A DNA stretch of 64,000 nucleotides from an uncultured Pirellula sp. (GCA_964483385.1 CAZACJ010000001.1:18780-82779), one strand, 5' to 3'; counted from the first letter of the stretch, positions 24,909-41,899 are shown. A program made the numbers and translations. Notes: a model not told the origin generated them from the sequence alone.

Positions 24909-25327
24909 ACCGGGAGGTAGGGCAATCGCTTTGCGCAGTTGGATTCGAAGGGGAGACTTTTTGAATTCTATGTGTGGGGAGGAAAGTCCGGGCTCCAACG
25001 AGCGAGATGGTCGATAACGTCGACCGGCCGAAAGGTTAGGGAAAGTGCAACAGAAAGCAAACCGCCCGCGAGGCCTTTGGCTGCGTGGGTAAGGGTGAAA
25101 CGGTGGGGGTAAGATCCCACCAAGTGGCGGGTGACCGTCCACTTCGGTAAACCCCATCTGGAGCAAGATCCAACAGAGTGAGATTTCGAGAGAGGTCGCA
25201 TCCGGCTCGTGATGTTAACACTCGGGTAGATCGCTTGAGCCCAAGAGTAATTTTGGGCCTAGATGAATGATTGCCGGCGTGGTGTTCGTTCACTGCGTGA
25301 CAGAACCCGGCTTACATACCTCCCGGT
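24909..25327 (+). ncRNA. rnpB: RNase P RNA, bacterial type A
   Basis: Conserved GAGGAAAGTCCGGGCTCC, GGAAAGTGCAACAGAAAG, GGGTGAAACGGTG, GGTAAACCCC...GAGCAAG, CTAGATGAATGA and ACAGAACCCGGCTTA. P1 is ACCGGGAGGTA (24909-24919) pairing with TACCTCCCGGT (25317-25327). Confidence 0.97.
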
Positions 25328-25419
25328 TTTTTGTTTTGATTGCTGGATTTCTTTGGGACTTTGGCTTTTGTGTAGCGTAAAAGCCTTGGGTTCTGTGGGT
25401 TCGGATGTAGGAGGGGTCG

Positions 25420-34058: not shown

Positions 34059-37000
34059 TTACCGAAAGTCGCGGGAGCGCCAATCGATGGGTCCTAAAGA
34101 GTTGGAGAGATCTTCGAGGCGTCCTGCGACGACGTGGATGACCCCTTTTCGGTTTTCTAAGGTACCGTGAACGAGCCAAGCATTGGATTGTTTGCAGATA
34201 AGGTAGTGGGCTTCCCAGGTTCTCGGGTGGATGACGAGATTGATGCTACCGGTTTCATCTTCCATGGTGACGAAGGTGATGCCTTTGGCGGTACCGGGGC
34301 GTTGTCGCAGAACGATAAGGCCGGCGACGCGAACGAATTGTCCGTGGTTTAGGGAGGCTAATTCGCTTGCGGTGCGCACGCGTAGGTTTCGTAGTTGATT
34401 GCGGTAGAACTGCATGGGGTGGCCTTGGAGAGAGAGGCCGAGAGTAGCGTAATCGGTTGCAACTTCTTCCATGGGGTTCATGGGTGCGAGGGAATCTGGG
34501 ATGGGGTCATCGACATCTGCACCGGCGGCTTCTAGGAGCGGCAGTGACGTGTGTGTTTTGTCTTGTCCTAGTGCTTGCCAGTATGCGGCGCGTCGATTAC
34601 CTGAGAGGCTAGCGAGAGCACCACTATCGGCGAGTATTGTCAGCGTGGCTTGAGAGAATCGGCATCGCCTAACGAGCTCGCTTTGGTCGCTAAATTTTCC
34701 GTTGCGATTGCGTTCTTCTACGAGGATTTGTGCATCTGATTGATGCAGTCCGCGGATTAGTTGAAGTCCTAGGCGAATACGGAGTGTTTGAGGTGAGGTA
34801 GTTGTTACTTGGGAGGGTTCGAGGGTGGACTCCCAGTGGCTTGTATTGACATCGACGGGAGCGATAGCGACTGCATGTCTTTGGGCATCGGCTATCAGTT
34901 GGGCAGGGGAGTAGAATCCGAGTGGTTGGCTATTGAGGAGTGCGCAGCAGAAAGCTTGTGGGTAGTGGTATTTGATCCAGCAGCTTGCGTAGACGAGTAG
35001 GGCGAAGCTAGCGGCGTGGGATTCGGGGAATCCGTATTCACCGAATCCGCGAATTTGGTGGAAAACGGTTTGTGCAAATTCTTCGGAGAGACCTTTCTTG
35101 CGCATACCGTCGACAAGTTTTCGTTTGAATTGATCGATGACGCCGGGGCGTCTCCAAGCGGCCATAGCGCGGCGTAGTTGGTCAGCTTCACCGGGTGTGA
35201 AATCTGCGGCGGCGACGGCCAGTCGCATCGCTTGTTCTTGGAAGATGGGTACTCCCATGGTTTTTCGGAGGACTTGAGCGATGGCTTCTGTGGGATATGG
35301 GGGGTGGATACCGGTTTGTCGTGCGGTGAGGTAGGGGTGAACCATATTGCCTTGGATGGGGCCTGGTCGCACGATTGCGACTTCGATCACTAGATCGTAG
35401 AAGCAGCGTGGTCTCAGTCTGGGGAGCATGCTCATCTGTGCGCGGCTTTCGATTTGAAAGACGCCGACGGTATCGGCTGAGCAGATCATGTCGTAGACTT
35501 GGGAATCGTCTGGGGGGATGGACGCGAGGGTGAGTGGACGTTGAAAGTGGTTACCGATCAAATCCATGGCTCGATGCAAAGCGGAGAGCATTCCTAAGGC
35601 GAGGCAATCGACTTTGAGGATACCGAGTTCATCGAGATCGTCTTTGTCCCATTGGATGATGGTACGCTCTTGCATGGACGCGTTTTCGATGGGGCAAAGT
35701 TCCCAGAGTTTTCCGTTGGTCATGACCATGCCGCCGGTATGTTGGGAGAGGTGACGTGGGAAACCGAGGATGGATTCGACGAGGTATAGGAAGCGTATTG
35801 CGGAGGGGGTTGTTGGATCGATTCCTATTTGTTGGAGTCGAACAGAGAGGTTTTCTGAGAGTGATTCTTTGCTTGAACGACCGTCGATGACTTTTGCGAG
35901 GCTATCGATATGGTCGTTTGACCATCCAAGGGCTTTTGCGCATTCTCTGGCGGCGGAACGGGTTCTATAGGTTGTCACAGCGGCGGTCATTCCAGCTCGT
36001 TCGCGACCATACTTAGCGTAGACGTATTGGATGACTTCCTCGCGGCGTTGGTGTTCGAAGTCGACATCGATGTCGGGGGCTTCGTTTCGTTCGCGGCTGA
36101 TGAAGCGTTCGAAGAGTAGGTCGTAGCAGCTAGGGTCGACGCTGGTTATTCCCAAGCAGAAGCAGACTGCGGAGTTGGCGGCAGAACCGCGGCCTTGGCA
36201 GAGGATATTTCGAGAGCGGGCGAATCGGACGATATCCCAGACGGTTAAGAAGTAGGCTTCGTAGTGTAGTTCTTCGATCAGGTGGATTTCGTGTCGAAGC
36301 ATCTCTACGATGCGCATGGGGACACCGTTTGGGTATCGCGATTTTGCACCTTGCCAGGTGAGTTGTTTGAGGTATTCGATGGCAGACATGCCATCGGGAG
36401 CCCATTCGGTTGGGTATTCGTAGCGAAGAGAATCGAGTCGAAAGGTGAGTTCAGACGCTATTTGTTCGGTGCGTTGGATTGCTTCTGGGATAGAGCGATA
36501 GAGGCTAGCGATTTGTTCGAGGGAGCGCAGAGCGTATTGAGCGTTGGCGGGTCTGAACGAGGCGACTTGATCGATGGTGCTACCAGTTGCGATGGCTTGG
36601 AGGCAATCGTGCAGGACCATACGATGGTGATGGTGATAGAGCGTCCCGCCGGCGGCGACGAGTGGAACGTTGCTGAGGGTGCTCCATCGATTAAGGATAT
36701 CGAGTCGTTGTGCGTCGTGTGGGCCGAGGTGAAGGTGTGCGAGAAGGTAGGCGCGATTTGGGAGTAGTTCGCGAAATGCGGCGAGCCACTGTAGCCAAGG
36801 AAGTTCATCGTAGGGGTCGAAGCGATGACCGGCGGGGCACCAGGGTTCCAGAGGGATAGGTTTTAGCGAGATGCAGTCCGGTTGATACCGATCTTCTGTG
36901 GGTTGTGATTCTTGGGTGGTATAGTCGTCTTGGTCGGGTGGTTCCCAGCCGAGGACTGAGGAGGGGCGTCCTGCGGGGAGAGAGGGGATAAGTCCGGCGA

Positions 37001-37370
37001 TACATTCGCAGGTGTGATCAGCAATATCGTGCCAGGAGATGGTGGAGAATCCTTTGGCGGCTCGCAGTCTTCCAATGCTGAGTAACTTGCAGAGGTCCGC
37101 GTAGCCTTGTCGGTTTTTTGGCCAAAGCACCAGCGGGGGGCCGTCGATCGGGTTGATTTCGCAGCCGACATAGAAGGGAATCTCAGAATCTTTTGCGGCG
37201 GTGTGAGCGCGGACGATACCTGCGAGTGTATCGCGATCGGTGATGGCAATTCCTGCGTAATTGAGTTCTTTGGCCGTTGCCGTCAGTTCGTGGGCGTGCG
37301 AAGCCCCTTCGAGGAAGGAGAAATTCGACTTACAATGGAGTTCTACGTAACGTACGCGGAGATTATTCAT
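34059..37370 (-). CDS. dnaE2: Error-prone DNA polymerase III alpha, DnaE2
   Basis: 1103 aa. YVELHCKSNFSFLEGASH (PHP), GRGSAANSAVC, PDIDVDFEH, PRHLSQHTGG, FGEYGFPESHA, OB fold and the DnaE2 signature C-terminus SRDFR. Confidence 0.97.
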   Translation of the reverse strand: MNNLRVRYVELHCKSNFSFLEGASHAHELTATAKELNYAGIAITDRDTLAGIVRAHTAAKDSEIPFYVGCEINPIDGPPLVLWPKNRQGYADLCKLLSIGRLRAAKGFSTISWHDIADHTCECIAGLIPSLPAGRPSSVLGWEPPDQDDYTTQESQPTEDRYQPDCISLKPIPLEPWCPAGHRFDPYDELPWLQWLAAFRELLPNRAYLLAHLHLGPHDAQRLDILNRWSTLSNVPLVAAGGTLYHHHHRMVLHDCLQAIATGSTIDQVASFRPANAQYALRSLEQIASLYRSIPEAIQRTEQIASELTFRLDSLRYEYPTEWAPDGMSAIEYLKQLTWQGAKSRYPNGVPMRIVEMLRHEIHLIEELHYEAYFLTVWDIVRFARSRNILCQGRGSAANSAVCFCLGITSVDPSCYDLLFERFISRERNEAPDIDVDFEHQRREEVIQYVYAKYGRERAGMTAAVTTYRTRSAARECAKALGWSNDHIDSLAKVIDGRSSKESLSENLSVRLQQIGIDPTTPSAIRFLYLVESILGFPRHLSQHTGGMVMTNGKLWELCPIENASMQERTIIQWDKDDLDELGILKVDCLALGMLSALHRAMDLIGNHFQRPLTLASIPPDDSQVYDMICSADTVGVFQIESRAQMSMLPRLRPRCFYDLVIEVAIVRPGPIQGNMVHPYLTARQTGIHPPYPTEAIAQVLRKTMGVPIFQEQAMRLAVAAADFTPGEADQLRRAMAAWRRPGVIDQFKRKLVDGMRKKGLSEEFAQTVFHQIRGFGEYGFPESHAASFALLVYASCWIKYHYPQAFCCALLNSQPLGFYSPAQLIADAQRHAVAIAPVDVNTSHWESTLEPSQVTTTSPQTLRIRLGLQLIRGLHQSDAQILVEERNRNGKFSDQSELVRRCRFSQATLTILADSGALASLSGNRRAAYWQALGQDKTHTSLPLLEAAGADVDDPIPDSLAPMNPMEEVATDYATLGLSLQGHPMQFYRNQLRNLRVRTASELASLNHGQFVRVAGLIVLRQRPGTAKGITFVTMEDETGSINLVIHPRTWEAHYLICKQSNAWLVHGTLENRKGVIHVVAGRLEDLSNSLGPIDWRSRDFR

Positions 37371-37414
37371 ACACTGTTAGTCTACCGCATTCCCTCCATT
37401 GCAAAGGTCTAGAC

Positions 37415-40114
37415 ATGTTGTTTCCTGAACGAAGAACTTCCGCGAAGCGAATCGAGGTGTGTGGGGGCTTGGCATGGGGCGGTTTGGGTAAGTGGATTTC
37501 TGGAGTGTTGGTGTGTGGAGTTTTTACGGCGGTACCGATTGAAGCTCAAGAGGGGGGCGTGGAGGGCGCTAGCAAGCCAGATGATTTTGCGCATACGGTG
37601 GTGCCCATTATCAAGAAGCACTGCATTGAGTGTCATGCGGGCAATGAGAAGAAGGGTGGTTTTTCGATCAACACGCGTGAGGATTTGTTGCGTGGAGGAG
37701 AGTCGATTTCTGGGGTAGGCTTGAATGGGGATAGTTCTGCGGCAGAGATGTTGCGTGCTGTTGCGCAAGGGTTACGGGAGCGGATCGAGACGCAAGACAG
37801 AGATTTAAGGATGCCCCCAGATGGGCCGGGGCTGACGGAGGCCGAGAAAAGAGTATTGGTAGCTTGGGTTTCGCAGGGGATGGATTGGGAGCCAGGGTTT
37901 ACTTTTGGCGAGCGGAGTTACGAACCACCTTTGCGTCCTAGAGCGGTTGAATTACCACCGGGAAATTCACCGGATCGTATGCATCCGATCGACCGAATCT
38001 TGGATGCTGTGCGAGTGGATAGTGGGGGAGAAATTTTGCCGGTCGTGGATGATCGCACTTTTGTGCGGCGAGCGTATTTGGATTTGATTGGTTTGTTGCC
38101 GACCCCGGAGCAGACGGAGGGGTTTGTAAGCAGTGAGAATGTTCGTAAGCGTGAGGAGTTGGTTCGCGAGTTATTGGGACGTGACATCGAGGTTGCGGAG
38201 CATTGGTTGACATTTTGGAATGACTTATTGCGGAATGACTACACGGGAACGGGATTTATCACGGGTGGGAGAACACAGATCACGAAGTGGTTGTATGAGG
38301 CTTTGGTGACGAACAAGCCGTACGATCAGATGGTCCGCGAGTTGATTGCGCCGCCTAGTGCAGAGAGTGCGGGTTTTTCTGGAGGGATTAAGTGGCGAGG
38401 TGAAGTTAGTGCGGGGCAGACGGTGGAGATTCAGTTTGCACAGAGTGTAGGGCAAGCTTTTTTGGGTATCAATCTAAAGTGTGCATCTTGTCATGATAGT
38501 TTCATTGATCGTTGGAGGTTGAAGGATGCGTACGGTATTGCGGCGGTTTACGCGAATCAGCCGTTGGTGATTCATCGTTGCGACAAATCGACGGGAGAGC
38601 AGGCTACGGCGGGGTGGTTGTATCCTGAGTTAGGGCAAGTGGATTCGAATGCATCGCAACCTCAGCGGCTCAAGCAACTCGCCGATTTGATGACTCATCG
38701 GGAGAATGGTCGATTTGCGAGAACGATTGTGAATCGGATTTGGCACCGGATGATGGGGCGAGGGATTGTGCATCCCACGGATGCGATGGAGACGCAACCG
38801 TGGAATGAAGATTTGTTGGACATGTTGTCCAATGAGTTTGTGGCCAGTGGGTATGATTTGCGCAAGTTGATTGAGACGATAGCAACTTCAAAGGCTTATC
38901 AAAGTCCTGCGGAGAGGCTTGTGGGTGATGAAGGAATTGTGGCTTACCGTTATGCGGGGACGCGGGGTAAGCGATTGACAGCCGAGCAGTTTGTCGATGC
39001 GGTATGGCAGCTTACGGGGGCTTCGCCGAGCAAATTTGACGCGGGGGTGGTTCGAGTCGGTCCGCCGAAGAAAGAGTTTTCGGGGGAGAGTGTGTTGGAT
39101 GGGGAAGATACGAGTGCTGGGGTGGTGCAAGCGGCGCGAGGAGCGCGGGAAGTGGAAGGGGAGTGGATTTGGGGTTCTAGTGCAAAGGGTGCTCCTGGTC
39201 CTGCGGCGAATGAGACGGTTTGGTTTCGCAAAACGTTTGAGCTCCCATTTGAAGTTGAGCGGGCATCGGGCACGATTACTTGCGACAACAGTTATCGACT
39301 TTGGGTGAATGGACAGTTGGTTCTCGAAGATGGGAATTGGGAGGGAGTCGAAGTGTTTTCTGGGTTGGAATTTCTTCGGCCTGGTCAGAACGAGATACTG
39401 GTGGAAGGGAAAAACGGTGGAAGCGGACCGAATCCTGCGGCGCTGTATTTTGAGTGGATCTTGGCGGGCTTCGATCCAAAGGGTGAGCAGTTCTCAAAGC
39501 CAGATAAACAACGAAGTTCGATTTTGCGAATCGTTTCTTCTACGGAATGGCAATGTTTCACCGGTGGTGGGATAGCACCTGAGGGTACAGATCGCAGTTC
39601 GATTTTATGGGAGTCTGCAGTGCGAGCCACTGGGCCTTGGGGGGATAGGTTGCGGGATGAGATATCTCGCAAGATGATCGAAGGGTTAGAAGGGGAGTTG
39701 AAGATGGTCAGGGCCTCGTTAGTGAAGGCGGACTTTTTGATGAGGAGTTTGGGCCGGCCGAATCGGGATCAGATTGTCACGGTCAGGCCGACGGAGTTAA
39801 CTACTTTGGAGGCGATGGATTTATCTAATGGGGAGACACTTGCGGAGTGGTTGCGGTTTGGGGCGAAGCGATGGATAGCGTCCTTGGCGATGCGAGGGGA
39901 GTTCGACGGTGAGCAGAGCGGAGCGGAGCGAGGCAGAGAGTACTGGCGAAGGGAGTTGATTGAGCCTTTGTATCTGCATGCATTGAGTCGACATCCTACT
40001 GAATTGGAGTTATCTGCAATTTATGAAGCGGTTGGAGAGAGACTGGAGAATCAGGACGTTGAGGATTTGATTTGGAGTTTGGTGATGTTGCCAGAGTTTC
40101 AGTATGTCCGTTAA
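37415..40114 (+). CDS. PSCyt1 + DUF1549 + DUF1553 protein with inserted sugar-binding-like domain
   Basis: IIKKHCIECH, RRAYLDLIGLLPT, WLTFWNDLLRND, CASCHD, ARTIVNRIWHRMMGRG. Insert WIWG...WFRKTF...CDNSYRLWVNG...PGQNEILV. Start moved to ATG 37415 so that it does not overlap dnaE2. Confidence 0.88.
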   Translation: MLFPERRTSAKRIEVCGGLAWGGLGKWISGVLVCGVFTAVPIEAQEGGVEGASKPDDFAHTVVPIIKKHCIECHAGNEKKGGFSINTREDLLRGGESISGVGLNGDSSAAEMLRAVAQGLRERIETQDRDLRMPPDGPGLTEAEKRVLVAWVSQGMDWEPGFTFGERSYEPPLRPRAVELPPGNSPDRMHPIDRILDAVRVDSGGEILPVVDDRTFVRRAYLDLIGLLPTPEQTEGFVSSENVRKREELVRELLGRDIEVAEHWLTFWNDLLRNDYTGTGFITGGRTQITKWLYEALVTNKPYDQMVRELIAPPSAESAGFSGGIKWRGEVSAGQTVEIQFAQSVGQAFLGINLKCASCHDSFIDRWRLKDAYGIAAVYANQPLVIHRCDKSTGEQATAGWLYPELGQVDSNASQPQRLKQLADLMTHRENGRFARTIVNRIWHRMMGRGIVHPTDAMETQPWNEDLLDMLSNEFVASGYDLRKLIETIATSKAYQSPAERLVGDEGIVAYRYAGTRGKRLTAEQFVDAVWQLTGASPSKFDAGVVRVGPPKKEFSGESVLDGEDTSAGVVQAARGAREVEGEWIWGSSAKGAPGPAANETVWFRKTFELPFEVERASGTITCDNSYRLWVNGQLVLEDGNWEGVEVFSGLEFLRPGQNEILVEGKNGGSGPNPAALYFEWILAGFDPKGEQFSKPDKQRSSILRIVSSTEWQCFTGGGIAPEGTDRSSILWESAVRATGPWGDRLRDEISRKMIEGLEGELKMVRASLVKADFLMRSLGRPNRDQIVTVRPTELTTLEAMDLSNGETLAEWLRFGAKRWIASLAMRGEFDGEQSGAERGREYWRRELIEPLYLHALSRHPTELELSAIYEAVGERLENQDVEDLIWSLVMLPEFQYVR

Positions 40115-40242
40115 CTTTCTGGAAACTTAGTTGATTTTTCGTTGTGTGGATCGGTACAATGGGGACGGTGCTGCGAAACGCATCGCGGCTTGCGTATCCG
40201 TGCAATCGGCTTCCGATTCTAGGCAACCTGGGAGTTTTGATT

Positions 40243-40394
40243 GCCTGGCTCGTTTCGAAAGGAGGTGATTAGTGAATTCTTGTTCTACTAGCCAAAGGGG
40301 TGGGGCGTCTTAAGCATGCCGGCGGGCTGCATAAGACAAGCAGCTCCAACCCCAGCTTGTGAATGAAATGAATCACCATTTCACCCTTACAGGC
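40243..40394 (+). ncRNA. Candidate structured RNA with 6S (SsrS)-like rod and central bubble
   Basis: Nested complementary segments: GCCTG 40243-47 / CAGGC 40390-94; GAAA / TTTC; GGTGATT 40264-70 / AATCACC 40371-77; GGGGTGGGGC 40297-306 / GCTCCAACCCC 40343-53; GTCTTA 40307-12 / TAAGAC 40332-37. A strong terminator follows. No covariance-model search was run. Confidence 0.5.
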
Positions 40395-40410
40395 TAAAGT
40401 GACGGTAACG

Positions 40411-40450
40411 GCCCGTGCTGCTGCGATTCTGCGGTAGCACGGGCTTTTTT
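40411..40450 (+). terminator. Strong intrinsic terminator
   Basis: GCCCGTGCTGCTGCG-ATTC-TGCGGTAGCACGGGC (15-bp stem with G:U pairs) followed by TTTTTT. Confidence 0.88.
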
Positions 40451-40477
40451 GTTTGGAGGGGGGGAAGATTGGATTGG

Positions 40478-41011
40478 TTAGGGTAGTTCGTAGAGTTCGG
40501 GGTCGACGTTGGGGGCTTCGAGAAGTTTTCGAAGGGTGTTTTTTATTTTTTGGGAGTGATGAGGTTCGCTCTTTGCGAACGGGTCCGTTTGTGATTCGAT
40601 TTCGTCTCCGATATGTTCGTCGATGGAGTCAGGGTCTTCGCCTGCTTCCATTCTGCGCATTGCTTCGAGCATTGCTCCGGAGGGTTCTGCTCCGGCGAGT
40701 TCGAACATGCGGTTCATTAGTTTTGCCATTTGTCGGGGGTCTTCGGATTCATCGGAATTACTTAGACTGGGTGCGAATTCGCTCATCAGTTGTTCCATTT
40801 TGGAATCGTCCAAGTGGGCGAATGGGTCTTGTGGATCCGCTTGGTTCTGGGGTTCGATCAATCCTTTTGATATAGCGAAACGAGATACTTTTTTCTCCAT
40901 GTCGTTTCTGCCACATTTTGGGCAGAGAACTTGGTTAGGCACCTGCATTTTACGGGCAAGAAAGTTAAAAATAGTATGGCAGTTGCCGCAGTAGAATTCG
41001 TACACTGGCAT
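40478..41011 (-). CDS. FmdB-family zinc-ribbon protein with acidic helical C-terminal extension
   Basis: 177 aa. MPVYEFYCGNC...CPKCG. Confidence 0.85.
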   Translation of the reverse strand: MPVYEFYCGNCHTIFNFLARKMQVPNQVLCPKCGRNDMEKKVSRFAISKGLIEPQNQADPQDPFAHLDDSKMEQLMSEFAPSLSNSDESEDPRQMAKLMNRMFELAGAEPSGAMLEAMRRMEAGEDPDSIDEHIGDEIESQTDPFAKSEPHHSQKIKNTLRKLLEAPNVDPELYELP

Positions 41012-41149
41012 TGGCTGGGGGTACCTTGGGATTCTTGACCGGGGGGTTGGAAAGGCTATGCTTGTTCAAGTTTTACCTTGTCCCTTTGGCGGGAGCGAGT
41101 CGATTTTTTATCCACGACTTTGGATCGCCGACGGCGAGTGATCTAGCAA

Positions 41150-41899
41150 ATGGAATACGAACCCTTGATCGGATCTTTAGGTGCCGATCCTCCGTTGATA
41201 CCGACGCCGGAAGTGCTTGAAGAGTTGCGATCGGTGAGTTTAGGGTTTGAAGAGTCGGAGCCTGAGGAGATTTTGAAGTGGGCTTTGGATCGTTATTCGG
41301 ATCGGTTCACGATGGCAACGGCGTTTGGGCCCGAGGGTATGGTGATTCTCGAGATGTTATCGAGGGTTGCGCCTAAGGCGCATGTGTTTAATTTGGACAC
41401 TGGGTATCAGTTTCCCGAGACGCTTGCCTTGCGAGATCGCGTAGCGGAGTTGTACGGTATCGAAGTCGAATTGATGCGTCCTGAGCAGAGTGTTGAGGTG
41501 TACGAGTTATCGAATGGCGGGCCTGTTTACAAGTCGGATCCGAATCGTTGCTGCAATGACCGCAAGATCGCTGTGTTGCGTAGGGCTGCTTTGGGTAAAT
41601 ATGCTTGGGCTAGTGCCATTCGTCGGGATCAGAGTCCGGATCGATTGCGAGCACCGATCGTAGGTTGGGACAGTAAATTTCATTTGGTCAAGATATCGCC
41701 GTTGGCGAATTGGACGAAGAAGAAGGTGTGGGAGAGGATTACCTCCAAGGGGATACCATATAACCCTTTGCACGATCAGGGTTACACGAGTATTGGATGT
41801 TGGCCGTGCACGCGTGCGGTGAGTTTTGGCGAGGACGAGCGAGCGGGGCGTTGGAGTGGTACTGGGAAGACTGAGTGTGGATTGCACACTCAAGATTAA
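41150..41899 (+). CDS. cysH: Phosphoadenosine phosphosulfate (PAPS/APS) reductase
   Basis: 249 aa. TAFGPEG, LDTGYQFPET, RCCNDRK, IRRDQS, YTSIGCWPCT, RAGRW, KTECGLH. Confidence 0.95.
   Translation: MEYEPLIGSLGADPPLIPTPEVLEELRSVSLGFEESEPEEILKWALDRYSDRFTMATAFGPEGMVILEMLSRVAPKAHVFNLDTGYQFPETLALRDRVAELYGIEVELMRPEQSVEVYELSNGGPVYKSDPNRCCNDRKIAVLRRAALGKYAWASAIRRDQSPDRLRAPIVGWDSKFHLVKISPLANWTKKKVWERITSKGIPYNPLHDQGYTSIGCWPCTRAVSFGEDERAGRWSGTGKTECGLHTQD

What the first reader, a model, noticed from the sequence alone, without database searches (positions are those of the whole stretch)
40221..40450. Unannotated ~150-230 nt structured RNA with 6S-like architecture and its own strong terminator
The 363-nt gap between two convergent genes folds, by inspection, into one rod: closing stem (GCCTG/CAGGC, GAAA/TTTC, GGTGATT/AATCACC), a large asymmetric bubble (40271-40296 against 40354-40370), then a G/C-rich apical stem (GGGGTGGGGC/GCTCCAACCCC, GTCTTA/TAAGAC). 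A 15-bp terminator follows, about 300 nt from the nearest + strand stop. This is the established shape of 6S RNA, an open-promoter mimic. A competing 5' hairpin (AGGCAA 40221-26 / TTGCCT 40241-46) would disrupt the closing stem, so a conformational switch is also possible.
Basis: partly seen in the sequence, partly recalled or inferred. Interest (0 to 1): 0.65.

Follow-up and report, generated by a model that had tools for sequence, protein, structure and literature searches.

The report
Abundant Pirellulaceae RNA with mini-ORF
The gap holds a real, independently transcribed and very abundant ~285-nt structured RNA, conserved across Pirellulaceae and absent from Rfam, which carries a perfect ribosome-binding site and an always-13-codon mini-ORF, but it does not have the shape of 6S RNA.

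Summary
The structured RNA and its terminator are real; the 6S reading is not supported.

**What it is.** A discrete ~285-nt + strand transcript runs from about 40162-40167 to 40451. It has a conserved sigma-70-type promoter (TTGATT-18-TACAAT) and a 16-bp terminator.

**Expression.** One metatranscriptome assembled a 291-nt contig that matches 40162-40451. In two rRNA-depleted metatranscriptomes the core is 40-270 times deeper than the flanking genes.

**Conservation.** I collected 25 distinct homologues, from Pirellula-like MAGs to cultured Aureliella helgolandensis, in at least four gene contexts. Often the RNA lies between dnaE2 and uppP. It is therefore an independent gene, not a UTR or leader.

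**Structure.** It is displaced by the local helices P3 and P5 (95% paired). No 5'-3' closing stem exists, and RF00013 gives no hit even at E<=10.

**Mini-ORF.** Every variant keeps GA[A/G]AGGAGGUG, complementary to the 16S 3' tail, in an SD-poor genome. A GUG follows 6-7 nt later, then exactly 13 codons, with UAA or UAG inside P4. The peptide itself varies.

**Best reading.** This is a new ribosome-engaging, probably translated, structured RNA. Its trans function is unknown.

The parts
40131..40160 (+). Promoter: -35 TTGATT (40131-36), 18-nt spacer, -10 TACAAT (40155-60)
   Evidence: Consensus scan. Both hexamers are kept in relatives (TTGATT/TTGTTT/TTGCTT ... TACAAT/TAGAAT/TACACT/TAAACT/TAAAAT/TATAGT) while the spacer and flanks vary.
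40162..40451 (+). The transcript (~285-290 nt). The 5' end is predicted at 40166-68 from the -10 box. The 3' end is the terminator U tract.
   Evidence: A 291-nt metatranscriptome contig lies on 40162-40451 with zero depth downstream. The core is 40-270 times deeper than the flanks in X25 and X28. Full-length alignment of 21 relatives.
40170..40189 (+). P1 hairpin GCUGCGA/UCGCGGC, with an 8-nt loop holding invariant ACGC
   Evidence: RNAalifold: 7 pairs, 4 with compensatory changes (G-C/A-U, C-G/U-A, U-A/C-G). L208 has GUUGCG/CGCAAC.
40202..40244 (+). P2 long hairpin: outer GCAAUC/GAUUGC, inner GCUUCC/GGGAGU. The 15-nt apical loop holds the conserved UCU[A/U]GGC.
   Evidence: Columns 42-47/83-88 of A2 show 3-11 sequences with changes on both sides at every pair.
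40246..40294 (+). P3: UGGCU (40246-50) pairs with AGCCA (40290-94). It encloses the SD, the start codon and codons 1-6.
   Evidence: 100% paired in A4 and 85-90% paired in A3 and A5, with one covarying pair U-A/U-G/C-G. Support is weak because the helix is mostly invariant.
40257..40269 (+). Extended Shine-Dalgarno GAAAGGAGGUGAU, complementary to the 16S rRNA 3' tail
   Evidence: GA[A/G]AGGAGGUG (AAAAGGAGGUG in L064 and L117) is invariant in all 25 variants. It is the only perfect AAGGAGGTGA in the 64 kb. GGAGG-N4-9-ATG occurs at chance level in the window.
40272..40313 (+). Mini-ORF: GUG + 12 codons + UAA (MNSCSTSQRGGAS)
   Evidence: GUG lies 6-7 nt after GGAGG. There are exactly 13 codons and a UAA or UAG stop in all 25 distinct variants, including divergent ones scoring 53-72 bits. 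A control AUG ORF at 40316 ranges from 3 to >24 codons.
40297..40353 (+). P4 long irregular hairpin, with an invariant apical GCC-GGCG-GGCUG. The stop codon of the mini-ORF lies in its 5' arm.
   Evidence: 20 pairs are 94-97% paired, 8 of them with changes on both sides, and 0/500 shuffles do as well.
40354..40395 (+). P5 hairpin (AGCUUGUG.../...UUACAGGCU; inner UGAAAUG/CAUUUCA). The loop AAUCAC(C) is complementary to the SD flank GGUGAUU.
   Evidence: The outer stem is 92% paired, with U-A/C-G and A-U/G-C changes. The inner stem is replaced by GGCUCC/GGGAGCC in L089. SD-to-loop complementarity has p=0.05 here and p<=0.007 in L208, L209 and L212.
40410..40451 (+). Intrinsic terminator (16-bp stem, loop AUUC, U tract)
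   Evidence: Scan. 8 of 13 pairs show compensatory changes. RNA-seq depth falls to zero after 40451 in X6.

Best explanation
This is an independent gene for a very abundant, ~285-nt structured RNA. It defines a family, so far unnamed and not in Rfam, that is found across Pirellulaceae.

**Shown**
- It has its own sigma-70-type promoter and its own strong terminator.
- It forms a chain of covarying hairpins: P1, P2, P4, P5 and the terminator.
- It is expressed far above its neighbours.

**Inferred**
- The RNA engages the ribosome. An invariant 11-13-nt complement of the 16S 3' tail recruits the 30S subunit, which starts at the invariant GUG and translates exactly 13 codons.
- The stop codon sits in the 5' arm of the invariant P4 hairpin. 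A terminating ribosome must therefore melt P3 and P4.
- ORF position and length are fixed while the peptide varies. The act of translation, or ribosome occupancy, is therefore more likely the functional point than the peptide.
- Occupancy could stabilise the RNA and/or toggle it between a folded form and a ribosome-opened form.
- In some lineages an anti-SD-like sequence in the P5 loop can mask the SD.

The downstream target of the RNA is unknown.
For: **Independent gene**
- The promoter hexamers and the terminator are conserved while the flanks change.
- At least four contexts occur: dnaE2(-)|RNA|uppP(+); PSD1(+)|RNA|Zn-ribbon(-); other convergent genes; and 1.2 kb from uppP in Aureliella.

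**Discrete and abundant transcript**
- A 291-nt contig matches 40162-40451.
- Core depth is 2611 and 1797, against 10-30 in the flanks.
- Parts of it are held by metatranscriptomes as small as 21-62 million letters.

**Structure**
- 32 of 62 predicted pairs show compensatory changes.
- The core is 93% paired, with 9 covarying pairs and 0/500 shuffles as good.
- G-U pairs fit only the + strand.

**Sequence conservation**
- The RNA is 87% identical in L003, where the adjacent protein is 66% identical.

**Ribosome engagement**
- SD, spacing, GUG, 13 codons and UAA/UAG are invariant in 25 variants whose model scores run from 138 down to 53 bits.
- Indels occur in the SD-start spacer and next to the stop codon, but never shift the frame.
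- Ser3 uses TCT/TCA/TCG/AGT, Thr6 uses ACT/ACC/ACA, and Ser13 uses all four TCN codons.
- The stop codon's third base is only ever A or G.
- The genome makes little use of SDs.
Against: - There is no ribosome profiling, toeprint or peptide evidence, so translation is inferred from sequence only.
- The most conserved codons (6-10) coincide with the P3 and P4 strands. The start codon may lie in a small local hairpin. RNA constraints could therefore explain part of the ORF conservation.
- The excess of synonymous changes is modest (roughly 16 synonymous to 24 non-synonymous events by my hand count) and is confounded by stem covariation.
- Contigs carry no strand information and their depths pool related strains.
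- No target or partner was identified.
- I could not search the rest of this genome, so copy number and the presence of a canonical 6S gene are unknown.
Confidence: 0.55

Rival explanations
1. It is simply the mRNA of a 13-residue micropeptide. The peptide is the functional product, and the hairpins only stabilise or regulate the message.
For: The start, frame, length and stop are all conserved. Several synonymous codon families are used at Ser3, Thr6, Ala12 and Ser13. High abundance combined with a terminator soon after a tiny ORF recalls the mccA transcript (from my own knowledge).
Against: The peptide is poorly conserved. Position 2 is N/K/S/T, position 4 is C/F/V/S, position 5 is S/C/F/Y, position 9 is R/W/G and position 10 is G/D. 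No conserved modification, export or partner gene lies nearby. About 105 nt of 5' domain carries invariant loop motifs (ACGC, UCUNGGC), and 140 nt of 3' structure is more than a stabiliser needs.
Confidence: 0.15
2. It is a purely non-coding RNA, either a base-pairing or protein-binding sRNA or an RNP component. The SD-like stretch acts only as a structural element or as a 30S-binding stabiliser of the STAB-SD type, and the ORF is incidental.
For: There are conserved apical loops in P1, P2 and P4. The abundance is typical of housekeeping ncRNAs. The SD and start codon may be partly paired locally. GAAAGGAGG is the STAB-SD motif of cryIIIA mRNA (from my own knowledge).
Against: It does not explain why the frame, the 13-codon length and a UAA/UAG stop survive in lineages where a third or more of the ORF bases have changed, counted by hand for L208 and L210. 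It also does not explain why the SD-to-GUG spacing stays at 6-7 nt while the spacer sequence and length change.
Confidence: 0.17
3. It is a divergent 6S RNA or a functional analogue. It would sequester RNA polymerase holoenzyme by mimicking an open promoter.
For: It is abundant, discrete and terminator-ended. [quoted passage not shown] That leaves a vacant role.
Against: RF00013 gives no hit at E<=10. The rod's closing stem is not conserved. No 5'-3' helix was found. There is no large central bubble in the covariation-supported fold. The length is 285 nt. The conserved SD and ORF have no counterpart in 6S.
Confidence: 0.05
4. It is a cis-acting leader or attenuator of uppP. Translation of the mini-ORF would control read-through of the terminator into uppP.
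For: In many lineages uppP starts 60-100 nt after the terminator on the same strand.
Against: In the window clade, the L085 clade, L064, L117 and Aureliella, no same-strand gene follows, yet the RNA, promoter and terminator are intact. uppP is not within the 64-kb window. No conserved antiterminator pairing was found. Several uppP genes have no such RNA upstream: L201, L204, L206, L207 and L211.
Confidence: 0.05

Closest known systems
6S RNA (ssrS, Rfam RF00013)
   Same: It is an abundant, discrete small RNA with its own promoter. In several lineages it lies just upstream of a housekeeping gene on the same strand, as ssrS lies upstream of ygfA in E. coli (from my own knowledge).
   Different: There is no model match. 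There is no closing stem between the 5' and 3' ends and no central bubble. It is about 100 nt longer, and it contains an invariant SD and ORF.
Dual-function sRNAs (SgrS/SgrT, RNAIII/hld, SR1/SR1P) - from my own knowledge
   Same: It is an independently transcribed structured RNA that also carries a small ORF with a ribosome-binding site.
   Different: The ORF is far shorter (13 codons) and its peptide is weakly conserved. No base-pairing target is known, and there is no sequence relationship.
mccA transcript of the microcin C operon - from my own knowledge
   Same: It has a tiny ORF with a strong SD and a nearby intrinsic terminator. The result is a very abundant short transcript thought to be protected by ribosomes.
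   Different: MccA-type peptides end in Asn and sit beside mccB-E genes. Here the C-terminus is S/P/F/T and no biosynthetic genes are linked. This RNA also has about 105 nt of conserved 5' structure.
STAB-SD stabiliser of cryIIIA mRNA (GAAAGGAGG) - from my own knowledge
   Same: It has the same extended SD motif near the 5' part of a stable RNA. 30S binding could plausibly protect it against 5' decay.
   Different: STAB-SD is not followed by a start codon at initiation distance. Here a GUG and a fixed-length ORF always follow.
Orphan abundant structured ncRNAs found by comparative genomics (for example raiA-motif RNA, IMES RNAs) - from my own knowledge
   Same: It is lineage-restricted, covariation-supported, terminator-ended and highly represented in metatranscriptomes, and its function is unknown.
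   Different: No Rfam family matches. This one has a ribosome-binding site and an ORF as its most conserved feature.

Membership tests
6S RNA (RF00013) | Scores against the family covariance model | tested here: not met
   There is no hit at the gathering score in the 64 kb. RF00013 is also not listed at E<=10 with permissive filters on 40050-40550.
6S RNA (RF00013) | Rod shape: a closing stem formed by the 5' and 3' parts of the RNA | tested here: not met
The competing local helices are 95% paired. No long-range covarying helix was found.
6S RNA (RF00013) | Large central bubble between the closing stem and the terminal stem | tested here: not met
   The proposed bubble strands are taken up by P3 and its enclosed SD/ORF domain, and by the P5 hairpin.
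6S RNA (RF00013) | Abundant discrete transcript of about 160-200 nt | tested here: inconclusive
   It is discrete and abundant, but it is ~285-290 nt long.
6S RNA (RF00013) | Binds sigma-70 holoenzyme and templates product RNAs | not testable with these tools
   This needs RNA polymerase co-immunoprecipitation and small-RNA sequencing.
Dual-function (ORF-bearing) sRNA | Independent transcription unit | tested here: met
   The promoter and terminator are conserved, the contexts vary, and there is RNA-seq support.
Dual-function (ORF-bearing) sRNA | The small ORF is translated | tested here: inconclusive
   SD, spacing, start, length and stop are invariant in 25 variants. There are no translation data.
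Dual-function (ORF-bearing) sRNA | Separate RNA-level regulatory activity | not tested
   Conserved loops in P1, P2 and P4 suggest partners, but no target search was possible without the genome.
Leader-peptide transcription attenuator | A regulated gene follows on the same strand | tested here: not met
   A convergent gene follows in the window clade, the L085 clade, L064, L117 and L210. uppP follows only in some lineages.
Leader-peptide transcription attenuator | Conserved alternative antiterminator pairing | tested here: not met
   No covarying helix competes with the terminator.
tmRNA | tRNA-like domain and a tag ORF without SD or start codon | tested here: not met
   ARAGORN finds nothing in 39000-41500, and Rfam gives no tmRNA hit.
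Rhodopirellula-1 motif (Weinberg 2010, not in Rfam) | A multi-copy bulged hairpin with conserved sequence around its base | tested here: not met
   It is described as a hairpin recorded 153 times in that study, and its sequence is unlike this RNA. This RNA is single-copy in the window.

The most novel reading that the evidence does not exclude
The RNA is a translation-level counterpart of 6S RNA. It would be a very abundant decoy that captures 30S/70S ribosomes through a 13-nt complement of the 16S 3' tail. In this SD-poor lineage that makes it almost the only strong SD. It would release the ribosomes only after a fixed 13-codon run into the P4 hairpin. In that way it would buffer or sense the cell's free translational capacity, in a family where canonical 6S has not been found.
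Probability: 0.1. Interest if true: 0.9.

Novelty: new variant of a known kind. Interest (0 to 1): 0.62.

Why it matters
**A new RNA family in a poorly explored phylum.**
- Planctomycetes have almost no described regulatory RNAs.
- Pirellula-type genomes reportedly lack a recognisable 6S RNA.
- This RNA is among the most abundant non-rRNA transcripts of freshwater and wastewater Pirellulaceae.
- It is more conserved than the neighbouring proteins, and it matches no Rfam family.

**An unusual most-conserved feature.** The most conserved element is a full-length ribosome-binding site with a fixed-length mini-ORF that ends inside an invariant hairpin. That is unusual for an sRNA, and unusual in a genome that hardly uses Shine-Dalgarno sequences.

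**Directly testable.** The RNA is present in a cultured strain, Aureliella helgolandensis. Its role can therefore be tested: micropeptide message, ribosome-coupled riboswitch-like regulator, or ribosome decoy.

Tried and rejected
**Known families**
- Rfam at gathering score and at E<=10 returned only terminator-driven noise (tfoR, F6).
- tRNA/tmRNA scan found nothing.
- The Rhodopirellula-1 motif of Weinberg 2010 is a different, multi-copy hairpin.

**Other readings of the transcript**
- 3' UTR of the upstream PSD1 gene: rejected. Other lineages have a divergent dnaE2 or unrelated genes upstream, and the promoter hexamers are conserved.
- A conserved AUG ORF at 40316: rejected, because its length ranges from 3 to >24 codons.

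**Structure**
- A search of all column pairs for long-range or pseudoknot helices found only noise among G-rich and C-rich runs.
- By hand I looked for pairing between the 5' linker (GCGUAUCCGU) or the P2 stem and loop and the 3' linker (UGACGGUAACG). An 8-bp match exists in L088, but it is not kept elsewhere.
- A universal internal anti-SD: rejected as universal. It is significant only in the L208/L209/L212 clade and marginal in the window clade and L117.

**Searches that found little or could not run**
- The CM search of the 76 other Zn-ribbon loci (L004-L080 without L064) found no further homologue.
- Literature searches for planctomycete sRNAs found nothing on this RNA.
- Wehner 2014 itself is not held in the library.
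I therefore could not look for a 6S gene or further copies elsewhere in this genome, nor in complete Pirellulaceae genomes.

Full report
**1. Observation**

The + strand gene (PSCyt/DUF1549/DUF1553 protein, 37277-40114) and the - strand gene (FmdB-type zinc-ribbon protein, 40478-41011) leave a 363-nt gap.
- The consensus scan finds one promoter-like site, TTGATT-18-TACAAT (40131-40160).
- It also finds a 16-pair terminator (40410-40445) followed by a T run.
- The + strand of 40200-40452 folds at -106.9 kcal/mol, z -5.5. The - strand gives z -3.3.
The MFE fold, however, is a chain of local hairpins, not a rod.

**2. No known family**

Rfam 15 finds only RNase P (24910-25330) in the window. At E<=10 the gap gives only terminator-driven noise and no 6S match. 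ARAGORN finds nothing.

The rest of the genome could not be examined.

**3. Relatives**

I used three routes to find homologues.
- **Zn-ribbon neighbour in genome contigs.** Of 80 Pirellula-type loci, L001-L003 carry the RNA at 94, 91 and 87% identity, while the protein is 85, 84 and 66% identical. L064 carries a distant copy.
- **Metagenome scan with a pattern from the P4 hairpin.** The pattern did not include the SD or the ORF. It returned 21 loci with the RNA among 120 matches.
- **UppP homologues.** Looking upstream of uppP added L202, L203, L208, L209, L212 and L210. L210 is the cultured strain Aureliella helgolandensis (record CP036298.1).

Together these give 25 distinct core sequences. 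Against model R1 they score from 138 down to 53 bits.

Model R1 finds one copy in the window. Among the other 77 Zn-ribbon loci it finds only L064.

**4. An independent gene**

The promoter hexamers and the terminator are kept while everything around them changes. Four contexts were seen.
- dnaE2(-)|RNA(+)|uppP(+) in many lineages. The L089 polymerase is 73% identical to the window's 34059-37370 gene.
- DUF1553 gene(+)|RNA|Zn-ribbon(-) in the window clade. Here the DUF1553 gene sits between dnaE2 and the RNA.
- Other convergent genes in the L085 clade and L117.
- In Aureliella, a - strand gene separates the RNA from uppP.

uppP is not in the 64-kb window. Five uppP loci have no such RNA upstream. 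This excludes a 3' UTR and makes a dedicated uppP leader unlikely.

**5. Expression**
- Metatranscriptome X6 holds a 291-nt contig lying on 40162-40451. Nothing lies downstream, and there are only low-depth pieces upstream.
- In the rRNA-depleted metatranscriptomes X25 and X28, the core (40242-40374) has word depth 2611 and 1797. The flanking genes have about 10-30.
- The window's own allele of the 5' part (40183-40270, no mismatch) has depth 404, against 9.6 for the upstream gene.
- Parts of the RNA are held by metatranscriptomes of only 21-62 million letters.

Caveats: contigs have no strand, depths pool related strains, and some DNA may be present in the runs. The edges at the predicted start and at the U tract still argue for a discrete RNA.

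**6. Structure**

RNAalifold on 21 full-length sequences predicts 62 pairs, 32 of them with compensatory changes.

| Element | Window coordinates | Notes |
|---|---|---|
| P1 | 40170-76 / 40183-89 | Loop holds invariant ACGC |
| P2 | 40202-07 / 40239-44, plus inner stem | Apical loop holds conserved UCU[A/U]GGC |
| P4 | 40297-40353 | Invariant apical GCC-GGCG-GGCUG |
| Terminator | 40410-40445 | 8 covarying pairs |

- P3 (40246-50/40290-94) and P5 (40354-61/40388-95) are 95% paired in 14 relatives, with changes on both sides in P5.
- On 27 CM-aligned cores, the P3-P4 structure is 93% paired with 9 covarying pairs, and 0/500 shuffles do as well. The same structure slid by 1-3 columns is 31-50% paired. 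That alignment leans towards the model.
It overlaps P3 and P5, so the two readings exclude each other.
- No helix joining the 5' and 3' regions emerged from an all-pairs search.

The architecture is therefore not that of 6S RNA.

**7. The ribosome-binding site and mini-ORF**

GAAAGGAGGUGAU (40257-69) is the complement of the 16S 3' tail. That it matches the tail is established knowledge; I did not read this genome's 16S gene.
- It is the only perfect AAGGAGGTGA in 64 kb. GGAGG-N4-9-ATG occurs at chance level, 19 against 16.9 expected. This agrees with the known scarcity of SDs in Planctomycetes.
- In all 25 variants, the core GA[A/G]AGGAGGUG is followed after 6-7 nt by GUG, then exactly 12 sense codons and UAA or UAG.
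- Length changes occur in the SD-start spacer (4-5 nt after GGAGGUG). One occurs beside the stop codon in the L085 clade. The frame is never lost.
- Divergent copies have changed a third or more of the ORF bases (hand count): L208 MNRFFTGHGDGAS, L212 MNSFFTGQWGGAT, L210 MSRSYSSHWGASP. All keep the start, the length and the stop.
- A control AUG ORF starting at 40316 varies from 3 to >24 codons.
- Ser3 is encoded by TCT, TCA, TCG and AGT. Thr6 uses ACT, ACC and ACA. Ser13 uses all four TCN codons. The third base of the stop codon is only ever A or G.
- The peptide is otherwise variable, and codons 6-10 coincide with the P3 and P4 strands. The evidence for selection on the peptide itself is therefore weak. 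My rough count is 16 synonymous to 24 non-synonymous events.

The pattern of fixed position and length with a free sequence is that of ORFs whose translation, not product, matters.

**8. SD masking**

The P5 loop of the window RNA (AAUCACC.AUUUC) can pair with GAAA...GGUGAUU.
- L117 and L210 have GAUCACCU opposite GGUGAUC. Relative to the window this is a double change.
- L208, L209 and L212 have [A/G]CCUCCUUUC opposite GA[A/G]AGGAGGU, giving 10-12 bp.
- Against dinucleotide shuffles, p<=0.007 in the L208, L209 and L212 copies, which form one clade. It is 0.05-0.12 in the window, L117, L093 and L064, and not different from chance elsewhere.

I take this as a lineage-specific option to mask the SD, not a family-wide feature.

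**9. Mechanism**

*Shown:* an independent, abundant, structured RNA with an invariant SD and mini-ORF.

*Inferred:*
- 30S subunits bind the extended SD and translate 13 codons.
- Termination inside the 5' arm of P4 forces P3 and P4 open.
- Ribosome occupancy then either protects the RNA or switches it between conformers. The first would explain its abundance, as proposed for STAB-SD and mccA transcripts (from my own knowledge).
- The conserved loops of P1, P2 and P4 point to further partners that I could not identify.

*Rivals:* micropeptide mRNA, a purely non-coding RNA with a stabilising SD, a 6S analogue, and a uppP leader. They are weighed in their own sections.

**10. Literature**
- A Thermogutta genome paper reports that Infernal found RNase P, SRP RNA and tmRNA but no 6S. 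It cites Wehner et al. [quoted passage not shown] The primary paper is not held.
- The only planctomycete-named motif in Weinberg et al. 2010, Rhodopirellula-1, is an unrelated multi-copy hairpin (PMC2864571).
- I found no description of this RNA.

**11. Verdict**

It is best filed as a new, lineage-restricted, ribosome-engaging structured RNA of unknown trans function.

Noticed in passing
window 24910-25330 (+): Bacterial class A RNase P RNA, 278.6 bits and full length. It is the only Rfam hit in the window.
   Followed up: no
window 40345-41035: In metatranscriptome X25, a 691-nt contig (depth 32.5) runs from inside the Zn-ribbon gene across the terminator into the 3' part of the RNA gene. 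The Zn-ribbon mRNA has no T run after the hairpin on its strand, so it may read through antisense to the RNA's 3' end.
   Followed up: no
L001 4526-4730 (- strand of locus): About 200 nt of G-rich tandem-like repeats (GGGCACAGAGAC..., GGTTAGGGGAGTGGGT...) are inserted between the RNA terminator and the Zn-ribbon gene. They are absent from the window.
   Followed up: no
L040 and L041, about 450 nt after the Zn-ribbon gene: The complete genomes SH467 and SH501 carry long direct repeats downstream of the Zn-ribbon gene instead of the RNA. One example is a repeated ~38-nt unit GTTGCTGGTCGGCCAAGAGTGGCCAACCTACAGT.
   Followed up: no
window 34059-37370 (-) and 37277-40114 (+): The DnaE2-type polymerase gene is orthologous (73% identity) to the gene lying divergently next to the RNA in L089. 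In the window the DUF1549/DUF1553 gene sits between them, so it looks like an insertion into an older dnaE2|RNA|uppP arrangement.
   Followed up: partly
L064 and L117 terminator loops; L210 815-860: In the L064 and L117 copies the terminator loop contains CACCUU, another anti-SD-like motif. The corresponding L210 loop reads UCACUCUGAG.
   Followed up: no
L202 2501-3604, L204 2501-3973: Gene callers extended UppP to 367 and 490 residues. In L202 the extension runs over the RNA gene, so the public annotation there hides the RNA.
   Followed up: partly
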